From contig CAZULX010000442.1 of NCBI GenBank assembly GCA_964621335.1, positions 1-28,508 of the forward strand: 28,508 bases of DNA, written 5' to 3'. This DNA is from an uncultured Streptomycetaceae bacterium (GTDB lineage Bacteria; Pseudomonadota; Gammaproteobacteria; Burkholderiales; SG8-41). The translations under genes were made by a program, and so were the position numbers. Below the pieces are notes generated by a model. The model was not told where the DNA came from. It searched no databases and saw only the letters and a list, made by a program, of their open reading frames with translations. Below, in pieces: positions 1,573 through 28,508 of this stretch (within the stretch, counting starts at the first letter, position 1; the number at the start of each line of letters is the position of its first letter).

Positions 1573-4500
1573 TCACGCGTGCAGATTCAAAGCATCCCAC
1601 GGCGGCTGAAGCCCGCCCGGAACGCTGATGCTGCCGGTCGTGATGTTACCGAGCACTGCAGCCGATTTCGTCCCGAGCACCTGTATCGAAAGGTCGCCGC
1701 CGCGCACGCGGTTGGCGCTCACGATCGCCACTGTGGTCGACAGTATGACGGCGATACTGGTGTTCGCCTGCGAGTCCACTTGATTATCGTTGAAGAGACA
1801 CTCGCCGGCCGCCGAAACCTGCGCGACCATGCCGCCGCGCGCGTTCAGCACGTTGCCAATCACGGAGCCGCGCGCCTGATCGATTCCGTCAGCAGCCGCG
1901 GCGACAGCTAGGCTCGCAACGTACGCGCGGCCGCCGCCCATTACGAGCACGCGGGTATTGTCCACGCGCAGCGTCGTGAGATTGCCGATACGCGCCAGGG
2001 GATTCCTCGGGTCGATATCGGCGGCGATCAATGCCAGCCGCGTGCCACCGACGGGCTGCGTAGAAGCTGACGTATCGCGCTCCACATGATTGTGGCTCAC
2101 CTCAAACTGCCTGAAAGGCGCGCGAAGCAGGATTCCCGCCACGACGCCTCCAAAATCACGCGGCGGCGCAATCTCGGTGACTTCGTTGCCACTCACGTGT
2201 GCTCGCATGACGCCCAGCGTGTGGATACCAGCGCAGAACGCGCCCAGTCTTGTCTGAGCACCGACGGTGCGGACGGTATTGCCGCGGATCGTCGCGGTAT
2301 CCGCGCGCCTAACGCCGATCGCGGCGACGGCCGTGTTGCGGCCTTCCACACTCGGCCCGATGTTTCGCAGATGATTGTTCTCGATGGAAACCGACGCCGC
2401 GCGCGCATTCTCGGTCGATACGATGCCGTTGCCGCAGTCTTCGACGATGTTCGACTTGACGATCAGCTCGCGGGTCGGTGCAGCGATCACGATACCGCCC
2501 TGCGAAAATCCGATCACCTGGTTCGACAGCACGTGGCACTGATCCGGACCGTTCCTGTCGAGGCCGCTCGCGACGGTAATTCCCGCAGTGGGCGGCGTGT
2601 CCGCTTGTTGCTCACGGGCGGAATTGACAAGCTTGTTGCCTTCCACCCACAGACCATCGACCCCACACCGGAAACCGCTGCCGGTAATATTGAACTGATT
2701 GCGGCTGACCCGCATCGATGAACCCGGAGCGCCCATGCCCAGCGCGCTCACAGCGAAGTCAGCGCAGCCGAATGCTTCGTTGCTGTCGATGCGCGTGCTC
2801 AGCATGTGCAGCACGTTGCCCGCAAGATTGATCCCCTGACGTCGGCACCAGAATGCGTTCCGTTCGATCGTGAGCGACGCTGCGAGCAGAAACCCTGCCG
2901 CAGATGCGTCGCCGCCCGGCGGGACTGCCACAGGATCGTTCGCCAGTACTCCGAAAGGCCCGATGATGAAGTTCTCCCGGATGGCCGCATCGGCTACCAC
3001 GCCTTCGAGCGAGATCGCCGCGCCGCGAGCGTCCTCACTGCCGAGCACGGCGAGCACCAGTTGCTTCAGCTCAAGGCCCAGTGCCGTGCGCACTGTTACA
3101 GCGGATTGGCGACCGAGTGATACGACGGAGAGGTTCTCCACCGCAACCGCCACACAGGCTTGCAACACAAACACGCCGCCCGGGCCTACGACAACGGTCG
3201 CCGGCCCCTGACCGCGTATGCGAACGGATCGGGTGTTCACGAGCCGCACCGGCTCACGCAGTGCGTACTGGCCACCGCCGAGACAAACGGTGCCGCCGTT
3301 CTCACGCACCTGATTCACCGCGTCCTGTATGGTGAACCGCCCGCTCGCGTGCGACTCGGCAGTGACGCACGCGGTGCAGCTGCAGTCTTGTCCTTCGACG
3401 CGTGGCGGCCATGGATGCCGGCAATCGGTTACCGTGCGCGCGCCCACATCCCAGAATCCGAGTCGTTCGTAATGGTGGTAAATGCCGCGCGGCGGCTCGT
3501 CGACGAGCGCTTCGACTGACGCATCCGCGGTGCGTGCGGCGAACACCCAGTGATCGCCGGCGCTGAATCCTTTGGCGCCGGCCGATGCGAAACGCACCGT
3601 TACCCCATTTTCGAGGATGAGTGTGGTGCCTGTCGGCGGCACATTGATCACGCCCCGCGTCCCCGTGGCGTCGAGGTCCTGGAACACCGAGGTCGCGCCG
3701 CCCGCGCCGGTCTGCAACACCTTGCGCTTTTGATCCCAGCGTCGAACGCGCAGGTTGCGGCTCGCCGGAAAGTCGTTGTCCGGGAATGCGCCGGGGAGCA
3801 TGTCGGCCGGCAGCGCACCATCGAACGTGATGCGCCGCACACCTTCCTTCACCGTGATCTGTCGCATCTCGCCGGCGCGCTGCGAGAGCTCCCGCACGTC
3901 GTCGGTGATCTCGACCCAGTCGCCGCTGTTCAAGCGCAGCACATCGTCACGGCCGAGCGTCTGCAGCTCGAGCTCGTTGCCTGAGATCATGCTGGCGATG
4001 CGGCTGCCGATGCTCGCGTTCTCGCGAGACCATTTAAATGTCGCGGTGCCGCCAGGCTGTCCGGGATCGTGGATCTCGACGCGATACGTCTGATTCTCCA
4101 AACCCCGATAGCCCCCGGTCGGGGGCAGCTCGCACGGATCCTCTTCGGGCGGCACCTCGAAGGTGCCCGTGGTGAGGCGTCCTGTGGACTGCGCGATCAG
4201 CTCCGCCCAGCCTTCGATGTCTTCATCATCCGCCTCGCACGTTGCGCTTCCCGCATCCGTATCGAGCACGCGCACCTGCCATACGGTCTGCAGGCGTGAG
4301 CTCGTCTCGACGCCGACCGCGAGTTCCACGAGACCGGGACGTTCGAGATGAGTGACTTCTCGCTGCCACACGTCGAGGTAGACGAGGTGTCTGCCGGCTT
4401 CGGGCAAAGGCGGCGGGACTGGCAAGTACGGCTGTGCGCCGTAGGCGATTGCATCGGCGAAGCTCACTTCCGCAAGGAGCGGGTCGAAGAGTTTCTTCGC

Positions 4501-4791
4501 CGGGTCCGTGGAGGAAGCGCCGTGGTTGTCGGCGAGTAAACCATCGACGTAGAGCCGCCCTTTTGCGATGGAAAGCGTCCCCGCCGCTACGCCGATCTTG
4601 AAGGCCTCCGGAGTCGTCGAGGGCACCGTGCTGCGGCCGAGAACGTCCGCGGCGAGCGCGCGCAGGCGTCGGTCCGTCAGCGCGACGTGCTCGTTGAAAT
4701 CGGAGTCGAGGACGACGCCGCCCTGCTTCAACTCGACGCCGGCGTAGTCGAGCAGTGGATTGACGCGGATTCTTGAAATGTCGGCACCCAT
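1573..4791 (-). CDS. DUF6519-domain protein with C-terminal right-handed parallel beta-helix (tail fibre/tailspike-like)
   Basis: N-terminus MGADISRIRVNPLLDYAGVELKQGGVVLDSDFNE, LYVDGLLADN, VYLDVWQREVT, YRGLENQTYRVEIH and FKWSRENAS match DUF6519 as recalled. C-terminal ~590 aa has repeated I.I..N.I / V..N.V beta-helix rungs. Confidence 0.8.
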   Translation of the reverse strand: MGADISRIRVNPLLDYAGVELKQGGVVLDSDFNEHVALTDRRLRALAADVLGRSTVPSTTPEAFKIGVAAGTLSIAKGRLYVDGLLADNHGASSTDPAKKLFDPLLAEVSFADAIAYGAQPYLPVPPPLPEAGRHLVYLDVWQREVTHLERPGLVELAVGVETSSRLQTVWQVRVLDTDAGSATCEADDEDIEGWAELIAQSTGRLTTGTFEVPPEEDPCELPPTGGYRGLENQTYRVEIHDPGQPGGTATFKWSRENASIGSRIASMISGNELELQTLGRDDVLRLNSGDWVEITDDVRELSQRAGEMRQITVKEGVRRITFDGALPADMLPGAFPDNDFPASRNLRVRRWDQKRKVLQTGAGGATSVFQDLDATGTRGVINVPPTGTTLILENGVTVRFASAGAKGFSAGDHWVFAARTADASVEALVDEPPRGIYHHYERLGFWDVGARTVTDCRHPWPPRVEGQDCSCTACVTAESHASGRFTIQDAVNQVRENGGTVCLGGGQYALREPVRLVNTRSVRIRGQGPATVVVGPGGVFVLQACVAVAVENLSVVSLGRQSAVTVRTALGLELKQLVLAVLGSEDARGAAISLEGVVADAAIRENFIIGPFGVLANDPVAVPPGGDASAAGFLLAASLTIERNAFWCRRQGINLAGNVLHMLSTRIDSNEAFGCADFAVSALGMGAPGSSMRVSRNQFNITGSGFRCGVDGLWVEGNKLVNSAREQQADTPPTAGITVASGLDRNGPDQCHVLSNQVIGFSQGGIVIAAPTRELIVKSNIVEDCGNGIVSTENARAASVSIENNHLRNIGPSVEGRNTAVAAIGVRRADTATIRGNTVRTVGAQTRLGAFCAGIHTLGVMRAHVSGNEVTEIAPPRDFGGVVAGILLRAPFRQFEVSHNHVERDTSASTQPVGGTRLALIAADIDPRNPLARIGNLTTLRVDNTRVLVMGGGRAYVASLAVAAAADGIDQARGSVIGNVLNARGGMVAQVSAAGECLFNDNQVDSQANTSIAVILSTTVAIVSANRVRGGDLSIQVLGTKSAAVLGNITTGSISVPGGLQPPWDALNLHA

Positions 4792-4810
4792 AATGTTCCC
4801 CGCTCTTCTC

Positions 4811-6979
4811 TTAGCTCGCGTAAAAGAGGCCCGCGTGCAGCCCGAACCGCAAGTATTCGTCCAGCCGGAGGCGCAGATTGGCTTCGCGCTGCGGCTGGGC
4901 GAGCGCGTGCATCACCCCGATCTCTCCACCGTCGTCGGCGCCTTCACGGACTACTTTGTGGGTCGCCGTGCGCAACTGCGCATAGCCGGGATCGCCGTAG
5001 TGCAGCGACGTGAAATGCGGCAGCGCGTCCGGGTGCCGTTCATCCGGCACGCAGCGAAAGCGCCTCGGCACGAGCGAACCTCTCGGAATGAAAGAGAAGC
5101 GCGCGCACCCGTTTTGTTTGCGCTCGATCCACACCGGCGCTTTCCACGCCGGATCGGCCGCGGCCAGTCGCGAGAAAAAAATCGTGTTGCTCGCCATGCG
5201 CATGAGGCGCACGTGCACCCTGCCGATCACCGTGCTGTCGCAGATGGAGAGCTCGGCGGCAGCCTCGCCGCCATTGATCCCTTCCAGGGCGACAGCATCA
5301 TCGGCGCCGCCATCGATGATCGACTCGATGATCCGCAGCTCGGCATCTGCGACGACGCGCAGACTGCCGACTATGCAGTGCTCGAGCGTCACGTTCGCAA
5401 AGCCATCGTTTACGATCAGGCTCGGCGCGCCCGGTGTCACCGCGCTGCCGTCGCCATTGAGCGCGAGTCCCGGCACCAGCGTGCAGTGACGCAGCACGAG
5501 CTCGCGCGGCTCGGAATCACCGCTGGCGGCGATCTCGAGCGCGCCGCCGCTGATGACAAGCCCTTCGAGGATGAGCGTGCCGCGCGTCCCGATCGCCAAG
5601 GTCATCGCTCCGCTGGCGGCAATCAGCGGCCGTGCTTCGTTGGCCGCCGTCACGACGACTTGAACGCCCGGCACTCCGTCGGCGGTAATGCCATCCACAT
5701 GAAGCGCCGGCGTTTCGCTGTACGTCCGGCTGTCTTCGATCACCAGTCGGCCGCCGCCTGCGATCGCATCGAAGTGCGGCTGCAGCGCTTCGCTGCCGCG
5801 TGCCACGCGCTGCGTCGCAAGCGCGCCGCCACTCAAACTGCGCTCGTACTCGCCGCCGCCAATAGGTCGCGAATACCCGTAGTGATAAGTCCCGAAAAAC
5901 GGATTGGACATGTGCTCTGCGGCGCGGGCGCTTCCGAGCACGACACGACCACGCTCCGGATCGATCAGGATGTCCTCGGCGAGTGCGCTCGCTTCATGCG
6001 CCCAGCCGCTGACGACGCCGCCGGAGACCAGCACGTCGCGCAGATCGGCAATGCGCATTTCAGGACTTGCGGGCGACGGCGGATCGCCGGCTGGCACCGC
6101 TGGACCCGGCCGATTGATCGGCACGACGGTCCCCGCCCGCCGCAGCACCAAGCTGCGGCCCGCGCCGTAGTCCTGCGTCTCGCTCACCACGTCGGTCGTG
6201 TCGTGCGCCTTGCGAACTTGCAGCGCGAGATCGCGCACGCGTAGGCGCTCGGGAACGTTGGCAGGCTCCGCGATGTGCGAGATCACGGTTTCGCTCACCG
6301 GTAGACGGAACAGCGCCTGGTCCGCGCCAAGCGGATTGAAGCGAAACCTGCGACCCGTCGTGTCTAGCGGATCGGGAATCAGCGGTACGTTGGTGAGCGA
6401 GAACGGCTGCAGCCGCCACAAGAACAAACCAATGTTGCGAATGTTGTAACGACCCGATCCGGCTTCGGGACGTCGCATCTCGGGCGTGTGGGCTGTGCGA
6501 TTGAAAGGGCCCCCGGCGTGCAGCATATCGGGCGCGGATCGAATGTTTGCGGTTCCCAAAGAGTGCAGCCGCGGATGGTTCATGTACTGTGTCACCGCGA
6601 GCTGCTCGAAGAACTCCACGGCGCGCGGGGGCCATTCCGTGACGTCTCGCGCCAGCTGCTCGAGCATGGCCGCCGTGCCTTTGCGCCGGCGATACGCGAT
6701 CGTATTCGCCACTTCCGCGCGCGGCGATGCGACGCGGGCGGTGACGCCGTGGAGCGGCCGATAGCCGATGAGGTCGCCGATATACGGCGCGACCCATTCG
6801 GCGCACGTCTCGATGAACTGGTCGTCGTAGAGCTGCTCGATGTTTTCTTCGAGCGCCTGGAATTCCTTTGCGATGAGCGCGAGGAGGGCACGCAAAGGTT
6901 CGCCTTGCGCCGCGTCGCGGATGCGGTAGACCGACGGCAGCAGTCGGTACAGTGCTTCGGCGTCCAGGCTCGCGCTCAT
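4811..6979 (-). CDS. Baseplate wedge / P2 tail protein I-like protein with beta-helix-like C-terminal region
   Basis: LYRLLPSVYRIRDA...LYDDQFIETCAEWVAPYIGDLIG...RRKGTAAMLE is typical of eCIS phage-tail (Tail_P2_I-like) proteins. Ends LRLRLDEYLRFGLHAGLFYAS. ATGA overlap with upstream gene. Confidence 0.75.
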   Translation of the reverse strand: MSASLDAEALYRLLPSVYRIRDAAQGEPLRALLALIAKEFQALEENIEQLYDDQFIETCAEWVAPYIGDLIGYRPLHGVTARVASPRAEVANTIAYRRRKGTAAMLEQLARDVTEWPPRAVEFFEQLAVTQYMNHPRLHSLGTANIRSAPDMLHAGGPFNRTAHTPEMRRPEAGSGRYNIRNIGLFLWRLQPFSLTNVPLIPDPLDTTGRRFRFNPLGADQALFRLPVSETVISHIAEPANVPERLRVRDLALQVRKAHDTTDVVSETQDYGAGRSLVLRRAGTVVPINRPGPAVPAGDPPSPASPEMRIADLRDVLVSGGVVSGWAHEASALAEDILIDPERGRVVLGSARAAEHMSNPFFGTYHYGYSRPIGGGEYERSLSGGALATQRVARGSEALQPHFDAIAGGGRLVIEDSRTYSETPALHVDGITADGVPGVQVVVTAANEARPLIAASGAMTLAIGTRGTLILEGLVISGGALEIAASGDSEPRELVLRHCTLVPGLALNGDGSAVTPGAPSLIVNDGFANVTLEHCIVGSLRVVADAELRIIESIIDGGADDAVALEGINGGEAAAELSICDSTVIGRVHVRLMRMASNTIFFSRLAAADPAWKAPVWIERKQNGCARFSFIPRGSLVPRRFRCVPDERHPDALPHFTSLHYGDPGYAQLRTATHKVVREGADDGGEIGVMHALAQPQREANLRLRLDEYLRFGLHAGLFYAS

Positions 6980-24740: not shown

Positions 24741-26336
24741 TTACGTGGGGATGTTCCCCGCGATCTGCTGCATCTTGATCACCACGAACTCGGCCGGCTT
24801 GAGCGGCGCGAAACCCACGACGATGTTCACGATGCCGAGATTGATGTCGGTCTGCGTCGTCGTCTCGCGATCGCATTTCACGAAATACGCCTCCCGCGGG
24901 GATGTGCCCTGGAACGCGCCCTGGCGGAAGAGGTTCTGGAGAAAAGCGCCGATGTTCAGCCGGATCTGTGCCCACAGCGGCTCGTCGTTCGGCTCGAACA
25001 CGACCCATTGCGTCCCGCGGTAGAGGCTCTCCTCCAGAAACAGCGCCATTCGCCGCACCGCGAGGTACTTCCATTCGCTTGCGAGGCTGTCGGCGCCTTT
25101 TAACGTGCGTGCGCCCCACACGACAGGCCCGGTGTTCGGGAAGTTGCGCAGGCAGTTGACGCCAAGCTGGTTGATCGCACCGTTCTCGAGATCGGTGAGA
25201 TTCACGTCGAGGCCCAGCACTCCGGTCAGAGTGGCGTCCACTCCCGCAGGCGATTTCCACACACCCCGCGCTGCATCGGTGCGGGCGAATACACCGGCTA
25301 CGGCGCCGGCGGGCGCCCACGATTCAGGCCGGTTCTCGTTCAGCGGATTCGCCGCGCGGATTCGCGGAAAGAACAGCGCCGCGTTTTCGCTCCGCGAAGC
25401 CAAGCTGGTGATCGCGTTCGTGGCAGTGACATCGGACATTTCATCCCAGCCGCTTGTGTTGAACGGCGGATCCACAAGCACCATCGCCCGGCGCTCTTTC
25501 GCATACGCGACCGCAGCGTCCCACGTGGTCTTGTCGACATCGGCAGTCGGGGAGAACGGCGAGATGCAAAGCAGGTTGAAGAGATCGGCTTTCTCCAGCG
25601 CAAAAAGGCCTTTCTTCGCGGCGCGCAGCCCCGGGTCCGAGATCTGGGTTGCGTCCACTGGGCTGCCGTTGTCGGCGTCGGTGGAGACGCTGGTCGCGCT
25701 GGGCTGGTCGAACGGGTCGGGCGCGGTCGAGGGCGCAGCCGCATTGGGCGTCGGCAGCCCGCTCAGTGTGGCCGTCGGCCCGCGCAGCAGCTTGCTGCTC
25801 TGCTTCAGCACTTCGCCCACGAAGCGCGGCTGGCCTTGAGTAATCGAAACGTTCAGGTGGGTTTCAGTGACACCGGTGGCGAGATCCTTCACGCGCAGGT
25901 TGAACAACGTGTTGGCTGGATGCAGCGCGGCCACTGCCGGATCGATGTCGGTATCGATGCGCAAGCGCAAGCGAGCAGCCCACGCGCCGGGGTTCGCCGC
26001 CGTGAACGTCGCGTTGCCGCCGCCCGCGAGCCCTACACTGGCCGTGCCCGGCTTCGCACCGTCGTGCACGCGCACGATCAATGCGTCGGATCCGCCGTTC
26101 AAAAAGTAGTGGTAGACGGCGAACGACATCGGGCTTTCGGCCCATAACCCTCCGAAGATGCGCTCGTACTCGGCGAAGCTGAAAATGCGTACCGGATTTT
26201 TCTCGTCCTCGTCGGCGGGGCCGCGCAGGGCGCGACCCACGAATGCCGTGATCGAAGTCCCCACGCCGGTGATCGTGCGCACGCCGCTCGGAATTTCTTC
26301 GATATAGACGCCGGGGTAGGAAAGGGCAACTGGCAT
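24741..26336 (-). CDS. Contractile phage tail sheath protein (Afp2/3/4-type)
   Basis: YPGVYIEEIPSGVRTITGVGTSITAFVG, GVWKSPAG, VVWGARTL, WKYLAVRR, WVVFEPNDEPLWAQIR, FAPLKPAEFVVI. Confidence 0.96.
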   Translation of the reverse strand: MPVALSYPGVYIEEIPSGVRTITGVGTSITAFVGRALRGPADEDEKNPVRIFSFAEYERIFGGLWAESPMSFAVYHYFLNGGSDALIVRVHDGAKPGTASVGLAGGGNATFTAANPGAWAARLRLRIDTDIDPAVAALHPANTLFNLRVKDLATGVTETHLNVSITQGQPRFVGEVLKQSSKLLRGPTATLSGLPTPNAAAPSTAPDPFDQPSATSVSTDADNGSPVDATQISDPGLRAAKKGLFALEKADLFNLLCISPFSPTADVDKTTWDAAVAYAKERRAMVLVDPPFNTSGWDEMSDVTATNAITSLASRSENAALFFPRIRAANPLNENRPESWAPAGAVAGVFARTDAARGVWKSPAGVDATLTGVLGLDVNLTDLENGAINQLGVNCLRNFPNTGPVVWGARTLKGADSLASEWKYLAVRRMALFLEESLYRGTQWVVFEPNDEPLWAQIRLNIGAFLQNLFRQGAFQGTSPREAYFVKCDRETTTQTDINLGIVNIVVGFAPLKPAEFVVIKMQQIAGNIPT

Positions 26337-26401
26337 CGCTCAAGCTCCTGGTCAGTTAGTAGTCCCGGGCTTCACGCAGCACGGACGAATTCCGCGCGTG
26401 C

Positions 26402-26653
26402 TCATGACCTGACGTCTTTCTTCCTGCGCTCGTAAATGACCGTCCCGTCGCGCAGCGTGTATCGCGCGACGTTTCCCCGCTCGATCAGCCGTTCCATCGC
26501 ACAGCGGACATCGCTCAGCCACTGCGCGTCGGCGTTTCCCGACAGCCACCATGTTGCGACTCCTTCCAGTGTGTCGGCAGCATTCGGATGCTTGTTCAGA
26601 TAGTCGCGAATCGTCTCCGCGAGCGCGTCAATACGCGCGTCGTCAGCATCCAT
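26402..26653 (-). CDS. Small winged helix-turn-helix protein; first gene of the operon
   Basis: Start ATG 26653 with AGGAGG RBS (83 aa). IRDYLNKHPNAADTLEGVATWWL...VRCAMERLIERGNVARYTLRDGTVIY. Confidence 0.75.
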   Translation of the reverse strand: MDADDARIDALAETIRDYLNKHPNAADTLEGVATWWLSGNADAQWLSDVRCAMERLIERGNVARYTLRDGTVIYERRKKDVRS

Positions 26654-26700
26654 GCTCCTCCTGATGAGAAGACGATGAGCCGCTCGTGCGCGAGCCTTGC

Positions 26701-26716
26701 GCAAGAGTCGTGCCGG
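26701..26716 (-). promoter_or_regulatory. Sigma-54 (-24/-12) promoter for the eCIS operon
   Basis: Minus strand CCGGCACGACTCTTGC, i.e. GG-N10-GC, close to the consensus TGGCACG-N4-TTGC. 48 bp upstream of the wHTH start codon and next to a bEBP gene. Confidence 0.88.
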
Positions 26717-26773
26717 AGCACGCAGCAGCAGAAGCTGTTTTAAAAACGAAGGGTTGCGGCGTCAGGCGCGGTG

Positions 26774-26797
26774 AACCGGGTCCACTTCAACCCGGTT
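26774..26797. promoter_or_regulatory. Palindrome, candidate upstream activator sequence 1
   Basis: AACCGGGT-N8-ACCCGGTT with perfect 8-bp arms, centred about -97 from the predicted start site. Confidence 0.6.
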
Positions 26798-26820
26798 GAG
26801 GTGCGTCGAACTTCGTCCAG

Positions 26821-26840
26821 GTGGGTCGGTGATGACCCAC
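26821..26840. promoter_or_regulatory. Palindrome, candidate upstream activator sequence 2
   Basis: GTGGGTC-N6-GACCCAC with perfect 7-bp arms. Same GGGT-N8-ACCC core as site 1, 45 bp away, centred about -142. Confidence 0.6.
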
Positions 26841-26852
26841 GTTCGCGAGACG

Positions 26853-27857
26853 CTAAGGCTGCCCCGCATGGGCGTCTTTGATCAGCCCGTGTTTCTTCAT
26901 GAGCTTGCCGAACGCTCGCCGCTCTTTTCCGCTCGAACGAGCCGCAGCAGAAACGTTGCCTCCCGCTTCGAGCAGCGCGCGCTGTATGAAAGAGCGTTCG
27001 AACTCCCGGACGGCGGCTGCTTTTGCACGCTGGAAATCCTGCTCATCGTGCTTCGTGTATGAAGGCAAATGCACGCTCGACCGTTCCGTAACTGCGGAAA
27101 GCGACGGCTGCACGAGTTCAACCGCTGTCCGTCCCTGGCTCTGCACCACTGCCCGGTGCACCAGGTTTTCCAGCTCACGCACGTTTCCGGGCCACGCATA
27201 GCCTCGCATCCAGGCAAGATCCGTGTCTGTAAGACGCTGCTCTTTCAACTGGTACTGCCTGCCGTAAATGCGCAGGAAATGATGGGCGAGCAGCTCTGCG
27301 TCGCCAGGACGCTCACGCAATGCGGGCAGCGAAAGCGAAAGTATGTTCAGCCGATAGAACAAGTCGGCACGGAACTGCTTCTGCGCCACGCTCTGTTCGA
27401 GTCTAGCGTTCGTGGCGGCGATGACTCGCACGTCCGCGACTTGGTCGCGTGCCGCGCCCAGAGGGCGATAGCGAAAGTCCTGCAGAAAACGCAGGAGCGC
27501 GACCTGACCTCGTGGCGGGAGCGCATCGACCTCGTCGAGAAAAAGCGTGCCGCCTTGCGCCTGCGCGATGAGGCCCTGCTGCGGTCCTCGCGCATCCGTG
27601 TAAGCGCCGCGGAGATGACCGAAGAATTCGTTCTCGATTAGGCTTTCGGGCAACGCGCCGCAGTTCGCGGGGATGAACGGCATCGCGCTGCGCGCGCCGT
27701 AGTAGTGCATCGCCCGCGCGACGAGCTCCTTCCCCGTTCCGGTTTCACCTTCAACCAGCACCGGCGCGTCGGTGCGAGCGATTGCTGTAACCTGGGAGAG
27801 AACTTCGCGAAATCGCGGCGCTTCGCCAACGAGCTTGGCGGCAGGATCGAACTCCAT
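26853..27857 (-). CDS. Sigma-54-dependent enhancer-binding protein (AAA+ plus Fis HTH) lacking an N-terminal sensor domain
   Basis: GETGTGKE, NCGALPESLIENEFFGH, GAYTDA loop, GGTLFLDEV, FRADLFYRL, WPGNVRELEN, GNVSAAAR HTH. AGGAGG RBS before ATG 27857. Confidence 0.95.
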   Translation of the reverse strand: MEFDPAAKLVGEAPRFREVLSQVTAIARTDAPVLVEGETGTGKELVARAMHYYGARSAMPFIPANCGALPESLIENEFFGHLRGAYTDARGPQQGLIAQAQGGTLFLDEVDALPPRGQVALLRFLQDFRYRPLGAARDQVADVRVIAATNARLEQSVAQKQFRADLFYRLNILSLSLPALRERPGDAELLAHHFLRIYGRQYQLKEQRLTDTDLAWMRGYAWPGNVRELENLVHRAVVQSQGRTAVELVQPSLSAVTERSSVHLPSYTKHDEQDFQRAKAAAVREFERSFIQRALLEAGGNVSAAARSSGKERRAFGKLMKKHGLIKDAHAGQP

Positions 27858-27979
27858 GGCGCCTCCTGGGACAACTGACGCTTGAGAGCCTTTTTGAGCT
27901 GCTACCGCTGGAGTCTAGAGCGCGATGCGTGTGAGGCCGTCGCACCTCATGGTCGCGCGACTGAAGTAGCTCACGCGAC

Positions 27980-28009
27980 ACTATAAAGAAGGATAACCGA
28001 GAGCGTCAA
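27980..28009 (-). promoter_or_regulatory. Candidate sigma-70 promoter for the bEBP gene
   Basis: TTGACG (28009-28004), N18, TATAGT (27985-27980); each box 5/6 to consensus. Confidence 0.55.
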
Positions 28010-28363
28010 TGTGCGGCAGATTCAGCGTCAGCGATGTCGCTGGGCACCGACACTCATCGGAAAACATGACATCGAAGCGTGCCCAGTTCAGCATGACATC
28101 GGACCAGCGAGCGTCGTGACGGTTCTATTTGCGCTTATCCGCACCATCGCTCTTAGCGGGGTGCGAAGCGTCGCCAGTCAGCCCCGGCTCAGGTGCAGGA
28201 TGCGCTCCGCGGGGACTCGCTCAGCTTGTGGAGTCGAAGGGTCTCTCAGCTCGGCAGTGAACTGGTTAATCTTGTCTACAACGCATGCTCAGCTACGCCT
28301 TCGCTAGCAGGCGTGCCTTGCCGCCATACTTCTGACGCAGCCGATATCCTTACGGATGAATGA

Positions 28364-28508
28364 CTACCGTTCCGGGGCGATCAGATCCGGCGCATTATTT
28401 TTCGGCGTGTTGACGCGCGTGCTCACCGGATAGCACTGAAGCATCTCGACAGGCGGCGGCTTTAGCAGGTCCTTCGGATCATCCGCCTCCAGCCACGTCC
28501 GATAGTCG
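28364..28508 (-). CDS. SOS response-associated peptidase (SRAP/YedK family), C-terminal fragment
   Basis: Manual translation DYRTWLEADDPKDLLKPPPVEMLQCYPVSTRVNTPKNNAPDLIAPER*. WL...LL.P...YPVS.RVN.P.NN is the SRAP C-terminal signature. Not in the ORF track because it is partial. Confidence 0.75.
   Translation of the reverse strand, partial: DYRTWLEADDPKDLLKPPPVEMLQCYPVSTRVNTPKNNAPDLIAPER

What the first reader, a model, noticed from the sequence alone, without database searches (positions are those of the whole stretch)
26689..26850. Fully readable sigma-54 enhancer architecture driving an eCIS
Seen, in order: -24/-12 box (26701-26716), an AT tract GTTTTAAAAAC (26737-26747, about -50) in GC-rich DNA, and two palindromes sharing GGGT-N8-ACCC (cores at 26778-26793 and 26823-26838). 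Established: bEBPs bind paired sites about 80-150 bp upstream and loop to sigma-54 polymerase, helped by a bend in between. Best-known eCIS regulators are of other types (LuxR-type, RfaH-type), so this is a directly testable alternative circuit and gives a motif for finding the regulon.
Basis: partly seen in the sequence, partly recalled or inferred. Interest (0 to 1): 0.72.

Follow-up and report, generated by a model that had tools for sequence, protein, structure and literature searches.

The report
Sigma-54 enhancer promoter driving an eCIS
The 200-base gap between a regulator gene and a phage-tail-like injection-machine operon holds a conserved sigma-54 promoter, an AT-rich spacer and upstream binding-site palindromes; this is a familiar kind of switch, attached here to a poorly understood class of soil-bacterial nanomachines for which it gives a testable control circuit.

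Summary
All features lie on the minus strand.

- **Layout:** a sensor-less enhancer-binding protein (bEBP, 27857..26853) is followed by a 199-nt gap, then an 83-aa winged-helix ORF, sheath, tube and the rest of an Afp/PVC-like eCIS.
- **Promoter:** the gap holds cGGCACGactcTTGCg, the only exact -24/-12 match in the window. Predicted +1 is about 26689.
- **Spacer:** an AT tract lies at about -53.
- **Upstream sites:** the window's only two GGGT-N8-ACCC dyads lie at -96 and -141, with a degenerate third site at -121.

Across metagenomic relatives:
- 40 of 54 loci have a -24/-12 box in the same place, against about 1 expected.
- Perfect GGGNN-N6-NNCCC dyads are about 150-fold enriched in the enhancer zone.
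- An AT-rich peak sits at -60..-41.
- The dyads persist where the bEBP gene is divergent, so they are not its terminator.
- The dyad half-site tracks an E/D change in the bEBP recognition helix.

No transcript, rpoN or binding data exist, and IHF is unproven. The mechanism is textbook and has T6SS precedents (VasH, Sfa2). Sigma54_activat already appears as an eCIS "shell" domain in a published supplement. I class it as a new member of a known kind, of moderate interest.

The parts
26853..27857 (-). bEBP gene (334 aa). It has an AAA+ sigma-54 interaction domain, an AAA lid and a C-terminal Fis-type HTH, and no N-terminal sensor domain (PspF-like). Walker A is GETGTGKE. The GAFTGA loop reads GAYTDA. 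The recognition helix begins KERRAFGKLMKKHG.
   Evidence: Pfam Sigma54_activat 1e-60, AAA_lid_14 3e-18, HTH_8 3e-6. NCBIfam hits all cover only the C-terminal two-thirds of sensor-bearing bEBPs, or the whole of PspF. The GA(Y/F)TDA loop is family-wide. Orthologues are 330-335 aa.
27980..28009 (-). Sigma-70-like promoter candidate (TTGACG-18-TATAGT) upstream of the bEBP gene.
   Evidence: Consensus scan, 10/12 matches. It is the only sigma-70-like site in 26300-28508. This is a pattern match only.
26821..26840 (.). UAS site 1 (distal dyad) GTGGGTC-atcacc-GACCCAC, centre about -141. It matches the family consensus TGGGTCA-N4-TGACCCA.
   Evidence: Perfect 7-bp arms. It is one of only two GGGT-N8-ACCC in the window. 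The GGG/CCC columns are invariant in 12 aligned relatives. Dyads of this type are about 150-fold enriched in the enhancer zone.
26802..26819 (.). UAS site 2, degenerate in the window (TGGACGaagttcGACGCA), centre about -121 and 20 bp from site 1. In relatives the left half, TGGGTC, is nearly invariant.
   Evidence: Alignments. L002 has a perfect second dyad at the same spacing, -141/-121.
26774..26797 (.). UAS site 3 (proximal dyad) AACCGGGT-tgaagtgg-ACCCGGTT, centre about -96. It aligns with the relatives' GGGGyGAAnTyCACCCA.
   Evidence: Perfect 8-bp arms. It is the second GGGT-N8-ACCC of the window. The GG...CCC columns are invariant.
26737..26747 (.). AT tract GTTTTTAAAAC at about -53, between the proximal UAS and the promoter. 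It is a candidate intrinsic bend or IHF/HU site.
   Evidence: Local GC minimum of 43%. AT content at -60..-51 is 19 percentage points above locus background, averaged over 47 loci. Close relatives carry a conserved T-rich GTTTCAG block. The IHF consensus is matched only with 2 mismatches at 26744-26756.
26701..26716 (-). Sigma-54 -24/-12 promoter element ccGGCACGactcTTGC (GG 26714-13, GC 26702-01).
   Evidence: It is the unique exact match in the window, against 0.17 expected. An orthologous box is present in 40 of 54 loci, against about 1 expected. TTGC is invariant in the 12-sequence alignment, and -24 GG is present in 10 of the 12.
26689..26689 (-). Predicted transcription start, 12 nt downstream of the C of the -12 GC. 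The 5' UTR is about 36 nt.
   Evidence: Inference from the standard sigma-54 promoter geometry. There is no transcript evidence.
26402..26653 (-). First gene behind the promoter: an 83-aa conserved acidic winged-helix protein (AGGAGG at 26662-26657). It has no Pfam or NCBIfam family.
   Evidence: 37 homologues, all metagenomic, with an invariant AADTLEG-A-WWL-G...DGTVIYE motif. The AF2 model has pLDDT 90.6 and an H-b-H-H-b-b topology. Fold hits are generic winged helix: Fur/Zur/MarR/Z-alpha/ScpA. Median pI is about 5.
1573..26336 (-). eCIS structural operon downstream. Named genes, in transcription order:
- sheath 26336..24741
- tube 24702..24178
- T4_baseplate-like 24181..23447
- Pvc16_N/Afp16-like 23169..21403
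- AAA+ ATPase (Afp15-like) 21811..19445
- eCIS_core/DUF4157 19200..17059
- CIS_tube 15711..14917
- spike OB domain 13397..12885
- gp25 12841..12188
- two Baseplate_J proteins 12191..9627 and 9630..6976
- DUF6519/beta-helix 4791..1573
   Evidence: Pfam scans. There is no further exact -24/-12 box or GGGT-N8-ACCC dyad anywhere in it.

Best explanation
The 199-nt gap between the bEBP gene and the eCIS operon is an enhancer-dependent sigma-54 promoter region.

1. **Closed complex.** Sigma-54 RNA polymerase binds the -24/-12 box (GG 26714-13, GC 26702-01) and stays closed.
2. **Activator binding.** The adjacent sensor-less AAA+ activator binds through its C-terminal Fis-type HTH. Its targets are a cluster of TGGGTC-N6-GACCCA-type dyads at about -141, -121 (weak in this window) and -96. 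It assembles there into a hexamer.
3. **Looping.** The AT-rich tract at about -53 lets the DNA bend so that the GAYTDA loops reach sigma-54.
4. **Initiation.** ATP hydrolysis opens the promoter and transcription starts near 26689. It runs through an 83-aa winged-helix gene into sheath, tube and the rest of the eCIS.

**Shown from sequence and comparison:** the identity of the genes; the presence, uniqueness and cross-family positional conservation of all three cis elements; and the independence of the dyads from bEBP gene orientation.

**Inferred:** that the bEBP, and not another protein, reads the dyads; the bend; the start site; rpoN dependence; and a single promoter for the operon.

**Input signal.** The bEBP has no sensor domain, so the signal must act on bEBP synthesis or through a partner. 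The co-conserved acidic winged-helix protein is my candidate partner. This would follow PspA/PspF or Hcp/VasH-type feedback logic, and it is speculative.
For: **Genes**
- bEBP domains are confirmed.
- The eCIS gene set is confirmed.

**Window**
- The -24/-12 box is unique in the window.
- The dyads are unique to this gap.
- There is no sigma-70-like promoter in the gap.

**Conservation across relatives**
- bEBP -> small ORF -> sheath synteny is conserved.
- A -24/-12 box sits in 40 of 54 loci at the same place, against about 1 expected.
- Perfect dyads number 31 per 11.2 kb in the -30..-300 zone, against 3 per 163 kb elsewhere, and there are no GGGTC-type dyads outside it.
- Invariant alignment columns fall exactly on the GGG/CCC of sites 1-3 and on TTGC(-12); -24 keeps one invariant G and GG in 10 of 12 sequences.
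- AT content peaks at -60..-41.
- The same architecture appears beside a 55%-identical bEBP with a different CIS-like gene set (L078).

**Who reads the dyads**
- The recognition helix starts KERR in all 18 GGGTC loci.
- It starts K/Q-DRR in the four GGGAC/GGGAT loci. Fisher p is about 1e-4, uncorrected for phylogeny.

**Activator competence**
- GAYTDA and GAFTDA are listed as sigma-54-competent natural variants in D. vulgaris EBPs (PMC4641369).
Against: - There is no experimental or transcript evidence, and no RNA run holds the locus.
- The host genome is unknown, so the presence of rpoN cannot be checked.
- Two lineages among the 16 closest relatives (L005/L070 and L074/L075) keep the UAS and TTGC but have AG instead of the normally essential GG at -24.
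- The E/D versus T/A correlation is not absolute. KDRR locus L020 and KERR locus L049 carry mixed GGGTC/GTCCC dyads, and the loci are not phylogenetically independent.
- The IHF consensus is not met above chance.
- Site 2 is degenerate in this window.
- The proximal site has a different arm sequence, and one base different spacing, from its counterparts in the closest relatives.
Confidence: 0.8

Rival explanations
1. The promoter is sigma-54-dependent, but the GGGT-N8-ACCC dyads are read by a different DNA-binding protein. That could be the co-conserved 83-aa winged-helix protein or an unlinked regulator, acting as repressor or co-activator. The bEBP would then act from other sites or from solution.
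For: - The small ORF folds as a winged helix, a common DNA-binding fold.
- It is as tightly linked to the gap as the bEBP.
- Some loci carry the small ORF, the promoter and the dyads without a bEBP gene within 1.5 to 3 kb upstream: L013 (about 1.5 kb of flank) and L050 (3 kb).
- Sensor-less bEBPs can activate from solution at high concentration (established knowledge, e.g. PspF lacking its HTH).
Against: - The small protein is acidic, with median pI about 5, and its helix 3 is not basic.
- Its invariant residues (AADTLEG-A-WWL) sit around helix 2, which is more typical of a protein-protein surface.
- The dyad half-site co-varies with the first residues of the bEBP recognition helix.
- Position (-96 to -141), multiplicity and a 20-bp spacing are classic for bEBP UAS (Bush and Dixon 2012, PMC3429621, cited; my own knowledge).
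Confidence: 0.1
2. The palindromes act mainly as RNA hairpins, serving as terminator or stabiliser of the bEBP transcript. They would insulate the eCIS operon from read-through and would not be protein-binding sites.
For: - Both palindromes lie 13-80 nt after the bEBP stop codon.
- As RNA they fold into 7- and 9-bp GC-rich stems, and the MFE structure contains both.
- Some high-GC bacteria use terminators without U-tracts (my own knowledge).
Against: - No T-run follows either stem, and the terminator scan calls nothing on this strand.
- The fold z-score is only -1.9.
- Relatives conserve the arm sequence itself, with no compensatory changes, while the loops vary. Site 2 is conserved as a half-site that cannot pair.
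- The dyads are kept at the same distance from the promoter where the bEBP gene is divergent (L042, L030) or convergent downstream (L011), so no bEBP transcript crosses them.
- There is no Rfam match.
Confidence: 0.04
3. The matches are chance or non-functional relics, and the eCIS operon is transcribed from an unrecognised sigma-70-type promoter or by read-through from the bEBP gene.
For: - GC-rich DNA produces GG/GC-containing strings easily. One-mismatch matches to the -24/-12 pattern are at chance level in the window, 7 against 5.1 expected.
- Two related lineages lack the -24 GG.
Against: - The exact box is unique in the window.
- It is positionally conserved in 40 of 54 loci, against about 1 expected.
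- The dyads are about 150-fold enriched.
- There is no sigma-70-like site in the gap.
- A dedicated bEBP is co-inherited with the locus.
Confidence: 0.03

Closest known systems
T6SS clusters controlled by sigma-54 and a cluster-encoded bEBP: VasH in Vibrio cholerae, Aeromonas and V. fischeri; Sfa2 in the Pseudomonas aeruginosa H2-T6SS (review PMC10482370; Bernard et al. 2011, PMC3133059, as cited there)
   Same: - A contractile injection machine gene cluster carries its own bEBP gene.
- That bEBP switches on a -24/-12 promoter in front of tube and sheath-type structural genes.
- Feedback from a structural component onto the bEBP is known there (Hcp-VasH), comparable to what I propose for the small winged-helix protein.
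   Different: - Here the machine is an extracellular Afp/PVC-type eCIS (Pvc16_N cap, Afp15-like ATPase, DUF4157), not a membrane-anchored T6SS.
- The bEBP is a 334-aa sensor-less protein with a GAYTDA loop.
- A defined dyad, TGGGTC-N6-GACCCA, can be read directly from comparison.
- The hosts are uncultured soil bacteria.
PspF / pspA promoter of E. coli. This is the prototype of a bEBP without a regulatory domain (Bush and Dixon 2012, PMC3429621; recalled from my own knowledge, not tested here).
   Same: - The activator consists only of an AAA+ domain plus an HTH. NCBIfam PspF models align end to end with this protein.
- There are multiple upstream sites at about -80 to -130, an intervening bend site and a -24/-12 promoter.
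- The first gene of the activated operon is a small protein that could feed back on the activator.
   Different: - The NCBIfam score is far below the PspF cut-offs (232 against 444 bits), so this is not a PspF orthologue.
- The first gene product is a winged-helix protein, not a PspA coiled coil.
- The target operon is an eCIS, not an envelope-stress operon.
- The IHF site is not demonstrable.
Described eCIS regulators: GerE/LuxR-type (next to 25.8% of loci), BTAD and RfaH/AnfA1-type (Geller et al. 2021, PMC8213781)
   Same: A dedicated transcription regulator is encoded at the 5' edge of the eCIS operon.
   Different: - These are a different regulator class, with sigma-70-dependent activation or anti-termination.
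- Sigma54_activat appears only in that paper's supplementary table: 49 genes, odds ratio 1.59, q 0.04, "Shell", 4 phyla. Examples are Leptothrix cholodnii Lcho_3032 and Pelobacter propionicus Ppro_0378, each followed by an ORF of about 70 aa.
- No promoter or binding site was described there. My full-text searches found no paper linking eCIS to sigma-54.

Membership tests
Sigma-54 (RpoN)-dependent promoter | GG and GC doublets exactly 10 nt apart, matching TGGCAC-N5-TTGCW | tested here: met
   cGGCACGactcTTGCg scores 10 of 12 specified positions. It is the only exact GGCACG-N4-TTGC in the window.
Sigma-54 (RpoN)-dependent promoter | Positional conservation of the element in orthologous upstream regions | tested here: met
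   40 of 54 loci carry a box of at least 9/12 within 110 nt upstream of the small ORF, against about 1 expected. TTGC is invariant in the alignment. The exceptions are L005/L070 and L074/L075, which have AG at -24.
Sigma-54 (RpoN)-dependent promoter | Transcription starts about 12 nt downstream of the GC and requires rpoN and an activator | not testable with these tools
   No RNA runs hold the locus. The host genome and its rpoN are not available.
Bacterial enhancer-binding protein (AAA+ sigma-54 activator) | Sigma54_activat AAA+ domain with Walker A/B, plus a C-terminal HTH | tested here: met
   PF00158 1e-60, AAA_lid_14 and HTH_8. GETGTGKE and the DEVD motif are visible in the translation.
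Bacterial enhancer-binding protein (AAA+ sigma-54 activator) | GAFTGA loop that contacts sigma-54 | tested here: inconclusive
   The loop reads GAYTDA. GAYTDA or GAFTDA occurs in 35 of 36 related bEBPs. The critical T is kept. Both variants are listed as compatible with activation in D. vulgaris EBPs (PMC4641369). Neither has been tested for this protein.
bEBP upstream activating sequence (enhancer) | Two or more dyad-symmetric sites about 80-150 bp upstream of the -24/-12 element | tested here: met
   Dyads are centred at -141 and -96, with a degenerate one at -121. The family-wide position distribution runs from -85 to -217.
bEBP upstream activating sequence (enhancer) | Sites are bound by the cognate bEBP HTH | not testable with these tools
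   Only indirect evidence exists. KERR helices go with GGGTC half-sites (18 loci) and K/Q-DRR helices with GGGAC/GGGAT (4 loci). Mixed cases are L020 and L049.
IHF-assisted sigma-54 promoter | Match to WATCAANNNNTTR between the UAS and the promoter | tested here: inconclusive
   The best hit is AAACGAAGGGTTG at 26744-26756, with 2 mismatches. Hits at that level are not above chance in the window, 48 against 54 expected. AT-richness at -60..-41 is nevertheless conserved.
Extracellular contractile injection system (Afp/PVC-like eCIS) | Sheath, tube, spike, gp25, Baseplate_J, Afp16-like cap (Pvc16_N), Afp15-like AAA+ ATPase and DUF4157/eCIS_core, without phage head or replication genes | tested here: met
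   All were found on one strand in 1573..26336. No capsid, terminase or T6SS membrane-complex domain was hit among the ORFs scanned. The ends of the window were not annotated.
Rho-independent terminator (rival for the palindromes) | GC-rich hairpin followed directly by a U-tract | tested here: not met
   The hairpins can form, but there is no T-run and no terminator call on the minus strand. The dyads persist without an upstream co-directional bEBP gene.
PspF orthologue | Score above the curated NCBIfam equivalog cut-off | tested here: not met
   TIGR02974 scores 232 bits against a cut-off of 443.6. PRK11608 scores 203 against 529. The architecture is the same, but this is not the same family member.

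The most novel reading that the evidence does not exclude
A three-part regulatory cassette travels with one clade of eCIS across several bacterial phyla. It consists of a sensor-less GA(Y/F)TDA bEBP, an acidic 83-aa winged-helix protein encoded as the first gene of the activated operon, and a TGGGTC-N6-GACCCA enhancer. In this reading the winged-helix protein is the missing input or feedback element. It would bind the bEBP, or a structural eCIS component, to gate production of a lysis-released particle. That would be a partner-switch mode of eCIS control not yet described.
Probability: 0.2. Interest if true: 0.65.

Novelty: new member of a known kind. Interest (0 to 1): 0.5.

Why it matters
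Almost nothing is known about when environmental bacteria make eCIS particles. Published surveys name LuxR/GerE-, BTAD- and RfaH-type regulators (PMC8213781).

This locus and more than 50 relatives give a concrete circuit that can be read from sequence:
- a dedicated sensor-less bEBP;
- a defined 16-18 bp dyad;
- a -24/-12 promoter.

The circuit can be rebuilt in E. coli as a reporter. It could be used to switch on silent eCIS clusters from uncultured soil bacteria, and it could be scanned for in genomes to find co-regulated effector genes. The apparent E/D to T/A correspondence between recognition helix and half-site also offers a small natural specificity-swap experiment for Fis-type HTH domains.

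It does not change how sigma-54 regulation is understood.

Tried and rejected
- **Genome search.** The genome-contig scan with the sheath gave one relative only, a Rokubacteria MAG (L001). The host remains unidentified. Relatives are labelled Rokubacteria, Burkholderiales or Vicinamibacterales MAGs.
- **Transcripts.** A search for RNA runs found none. DNA runs show the sequence in many soil and sediment metagenomes, but that says nothing about transcription.
- **Known RNAs and tRNAs.** An Rfam scan of 26300-28508 at E<=1 found nothing. There are no tRNAs in the window.
- **Terminator reading.** Rejected.
- **IHF consensus.** Not above chance.
- **More promoters or dyads in the operon.** There are none at exact match. 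One-mismatch promoter hits are at chance level and lie inside genes.
- **Small winged-helix protein as the dyad reader.** I consider this unlikely because the protein is acidic. It is not excluded.
- **Literature.** No paper in the held library links eCIS with sigma-54 or enhancer-binding proteins. The one co-occurrence, in Geobacter (PMC10599522), is coincidental.
Full report
**1. What is in the window**

All relevant genes run on the minus strand.
- A 334-aa protein at 27857..26853 carries Sigma54_activat (1e-60), an AAA lid and a Fis-type HTH_8, with no N-terminal sensor domain.
- NCBIfam models of sensor-bearing bEBPs align only with their C-terminal two-thirds. PspF models align end to end but far below cut-off.
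- After a 199-nt gap comes an 83-aa ORF (26653..26402) with no family assignment.
- Then follow sheath (26336..24741), tube (24702..24178), a Pvc16_N/Afp16-like protein, an Afp15-like AAA+ ATPase, an eCIS_core/DUF4157 protein, a second tube-like protein, spike, gp25, two Baseplate_J proteins and a DUF6519/beta-helix protein.
- This is a complete Afp/PVC-type extracellular contractile injection system.

**2. Check of the observation**

Read on the minus strand, the gap contains the following elements.
- *Promoter.* cGGCACGactcTTGCg has GG at 26714-13 and GC at 26702-01. GGCACG-N4-TTGC occurs once in 28.5 kb, against 0.17 expected. With one mismatch the pattern is at chance level. With C(-12) at 26701, the predicted +1 is about 26689.
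- *AT tract.* It lies at 26737-26747, at about -53, and is the local GC minimum.
- *Palindromes.* They are GTGGGTC-N6-GACCCAC (26821-26840, centre -141) and AACCGGGT-N8-ACCCGGTT (26774-26797, centre -96).
- *Uniqueness.* GGGT-N8-ACCC occurs exactly twice in the window, both here, against 0.14 expected.
- *No competing promoter.* No sigma-70-like promoter is called in the gap. One (TTGACG-18-TATAGT, 28009..27980) precedes the bEBP gene.

**3. Related loci**

- The sheath found one genome relative, a Rokubacteria MAG (L001).
- The small ORF has 37 homologues, all from metagenomes.
- An alignment-driven scan returned 60 metagenome loci.
- Eleven look-ups by exact protein added L062-L078.
- In 31 of the first 61 loci a bEBP gene ends a few hundred bases upstream of the small ORF on the same strand, often with the sheath downstream. 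In seven others it is divergent (L030, L042-44, L061) or convergent (L011).

**4. Phylogenetic footprinting**

- *Promoter.* A GG-N10-GC element matching at least 9 of 12 consensus positions lies within 110 nt upstream of the small ORF in 40 of 54 non-redundant loci. About 1 is expected from the background rate in the same loci. At 10 or more of 12 the figures are 25 against 0.15.
- *Dyads.* Perfect dyads GGGNN-N6-NNCCC occur 31 times in 11.2 kb of the -30..-300 zone. They occur 3 times in the remaining 163 kb. Twenty-one of the 31 are GGGTC-N6-GACCC, and none of the 3 outliers is.
- *Dyad positions.* Centres fall into groups at about -85 to -110, -121 to -141 and -156 to -217.
- *AT content.* Relative to each locus's background, AT content peaks at -60..-41, reaching 19 percentage points above background at -60..-51 over 47 loci.
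- *Alignment blocks.* In alignments of the 12-16 closest gaps the conserved blocks are: site 1 TGGGTCA-N4-TGACCCA; site 2 20 bp downstream, with only its left half TGGGTC well conserved; site 3 GGGGyGAAnTyCACCCA; a T-rich GTTTCAG block; GGCATGGCTCTTGC; and the ribosome-binding site with the ATG.
Site 2 is degenerate in this window (26802-26819).
- *Wider reach.* The same layout, TGGCACGGTGCTTGC plus two perfect GGGTC dyads, appears next to a 55%-identical bEBP that precedes a different CIS-like gene set (L078).

**5. Who reads the dyads**

- The bEBP recognition helix begins KERR in all 18 loci whose dominant half-site is GGGTC.
- It begins KDRR or QDRR in the four loci with GGGAC or GGGAT.
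- A naive Fisher test gives p of about 1e-4. The loci are phylogenetically related, and two loci (L020, L049) carry mixed dyads. I treat this as suggestive.
- The alternative reader, the small ORF, is predicted with high confidence to be a stand-alone winged helix (pLDDT 90.6). Fold matches are generic.
- That protein is acidic, with median pI of about 5, and its invariant residues cluster around helix 2 rather than on a basic helix 3. This favours a protein-protein role.

**6. The terminator alternative**

- As RNA the two palindromes can form 7- and 9-bp stems.
- No U-tract follows them and no terminator is called. There is no Rfam match.
- Relatives conserve the arm sequence without compensatory changes, and site 2 survives as an unpairable half-site.
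- The dyads stay at the same distance from the promoter where no bEBP transcript can cross them (L042, L030, L011).

I consider this alternative effectively refuted as the main function.

**7. Competence of the activator**

- The sigma-54-contacting loop is GAYTDA rather than GAFTGA.
- The whole eCIS-linked family has GAYTDA (22), GAFTDA (13) or GAYTGA (1).
- A study of Desulfovibrio vulgaris EBPs lists both GAFTDA and GAYTDA among natural variants expected to retain activation. A GAFTDA protein there has an experimentally assigned regulon (PMC4641369).
- The conserved threonine is present.

**8. Mechanism proposed**

- Sigma-54 holoenzyme sits closed on the -24/-12 box.
- The bEBP is probably made from its own sigma-70-type promoter.
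- It binds sites 1-3 and oligomerises.
- The AT-rich tract lets the DNA loop.
- ATP hydrolysis opens the promoter, and transcription from about 26689 runs through the winged-helix gene into the eCIS operon.
- The protein has no sensor domain, so control must come from its synthesis or from a partner. The co-inherited winged-helix protein is the obvious candidate. Precedents are PspA on PspF (my own knowledge) and Hcp on VasH (PMC10482370). This last step is speculation.

**9. Weak points**

- There is no transcript, binding or rpoN evidence.
- The host is unknown.
- Two related lineages have AG instead of GG at -24.
- The IHF consensus is not met above chance.
- The proximal site differs in arm sequence, and by one base in spacing, from its counterparts in the closest relatives.

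**10. Comparison with what is known, and novelty**

- The mechanism is the textbook bEBP/sigma-54 enhancer.
- The nearest functional analogues are the T6SS clusters switched on by cluster-encoded VasH or Sfa2 with RpoN (PMC10482370).
- For eCIS, the main survey names GerE/LuxR-type, BTAD and RfaH regulators in its text (PMC8213781).
- Its supplementary tables already list Sigma54_activat as a weakly enriched "shell" domain: 49 genes, odds ratio 1.59, q 0.04. Examples are Leptothrix cholodnii Lcho_3032 and Pelobacter propionicus Ppro_0378, each followed by an ORF of about 70 aa.
- Four full-text searches found no paper describing sigma-54 control, a promoter or a binding motif for any eCIS.
- New here are the cis architecture, the dyad motif, the dedicated sensor-less GA(Y/F)TDA bEBP subfamily and the linked winged-helix gene. 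The kind of system is not new.

**11. Verdict**

- Confidence is about 0.8 for the full model, and higher for "conserved sigma-54 promoter plus conserved upstream dyads".
- I class it as a new member of a known kind, with interest 0.5.

Noticed in passing
window 26402-26653 (-): An 83-aa ORF is the first gene behind the promoter. It belongs to a small, purely metagenomic family with no Pfam or NCBIfam model and an invariant AADTLEG-A-WWL-G...DGTVIYE motif. It is predicted to be an acidic stand-alone winged helix and is co-inherited with the sensor-less bEBP. It may be the bEBP's partner or feedback protein.
   Followed up: partly
window 26853-27857 (-), and bEBPs of L001-L078: The sigma-54-contacting loop reads GAYTDA or GAFTDA in 35 of 36 eCIS-linked bEBPs, not GAFTGA. 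This is a family signature.
   Followed up: partly
L005 about 1500-1530; L070 about 2930-2960; L074 about 1895-1925; L075 equivalent: Two related lineages keep the dyads and the -12 TTGC but have AG instead of the normally essential GG at -24 (gagAGTCCggttCTTGC and gtAGCACaactCTTGC). This is unexplained. The promoter may be weakened or differently read, or these may be decaying loci.
   Followed up: no
L077 2662-4999: A Vicinamibacterales MAG carries two tandem sensor-less bEBP genes (366 and 332 aa), reminiscent of the HrpR/HrpS pair. No eCIS genes lie within the stretch retrieved.
   Followed up: no
L078 4001-8597: A 55%-identical bEBP is followed by a 78-aa ORF, a 130-aa ORF and an 864-aa protein with a faint tube-protein hit. 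The gap has TGGCACGGTGCTTGC and two perfect GGGTC-N6-GACCC dyads. The same regulatory cassette therefore sits on a different CIS-like gene set.
   Followed up: partly
window 26682-26719: A 10-bp perfect palindrome, CTTGCGCAAG, overlaps the -12 element. A short hairpin-forming repeat, GCTCGcgcaCGAGC, lies just upstream of the predicted +1, at about -2 to -15. These could be an operator or a chance feature.
   Followed up: no
window 27980-28009 (-): The only sigma-70-like promoter match in 26300-28508 (TTGACG-18-TATAGT) lies about 120 nt upstream of the bEBP start codon.
   Followed up: no
L042 1160-2398 (-); P0112, P0126, P0147, P0149 (461-465 aa): Some family members are longer: 412 aa for the maximal ORF in L042, and about 460 aa in several database hits. 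Pelobacter Ppro_0378 carries a receiver domain according to the Geller supplement. Sensor-bearing versions of this eCIS-linked bEBP therefore seem to exist.
   Followed up: no
window 26300-27300: Near-identical sequence is present in contigs of about 20 soil and sediment metagenome runs from many studies, with up to 90% of sampled words shared. The carrier is therefore a widespread soil organism. No RNA run was found.
   Followed up: partly
window 1573-4791 (-): The last large gene of the operon (1072 aa) combines DUF6519 with a right-handed beta-helix. It is probably the tail-fibre or receptor-binding protein, or an effector.
   Followed up: no
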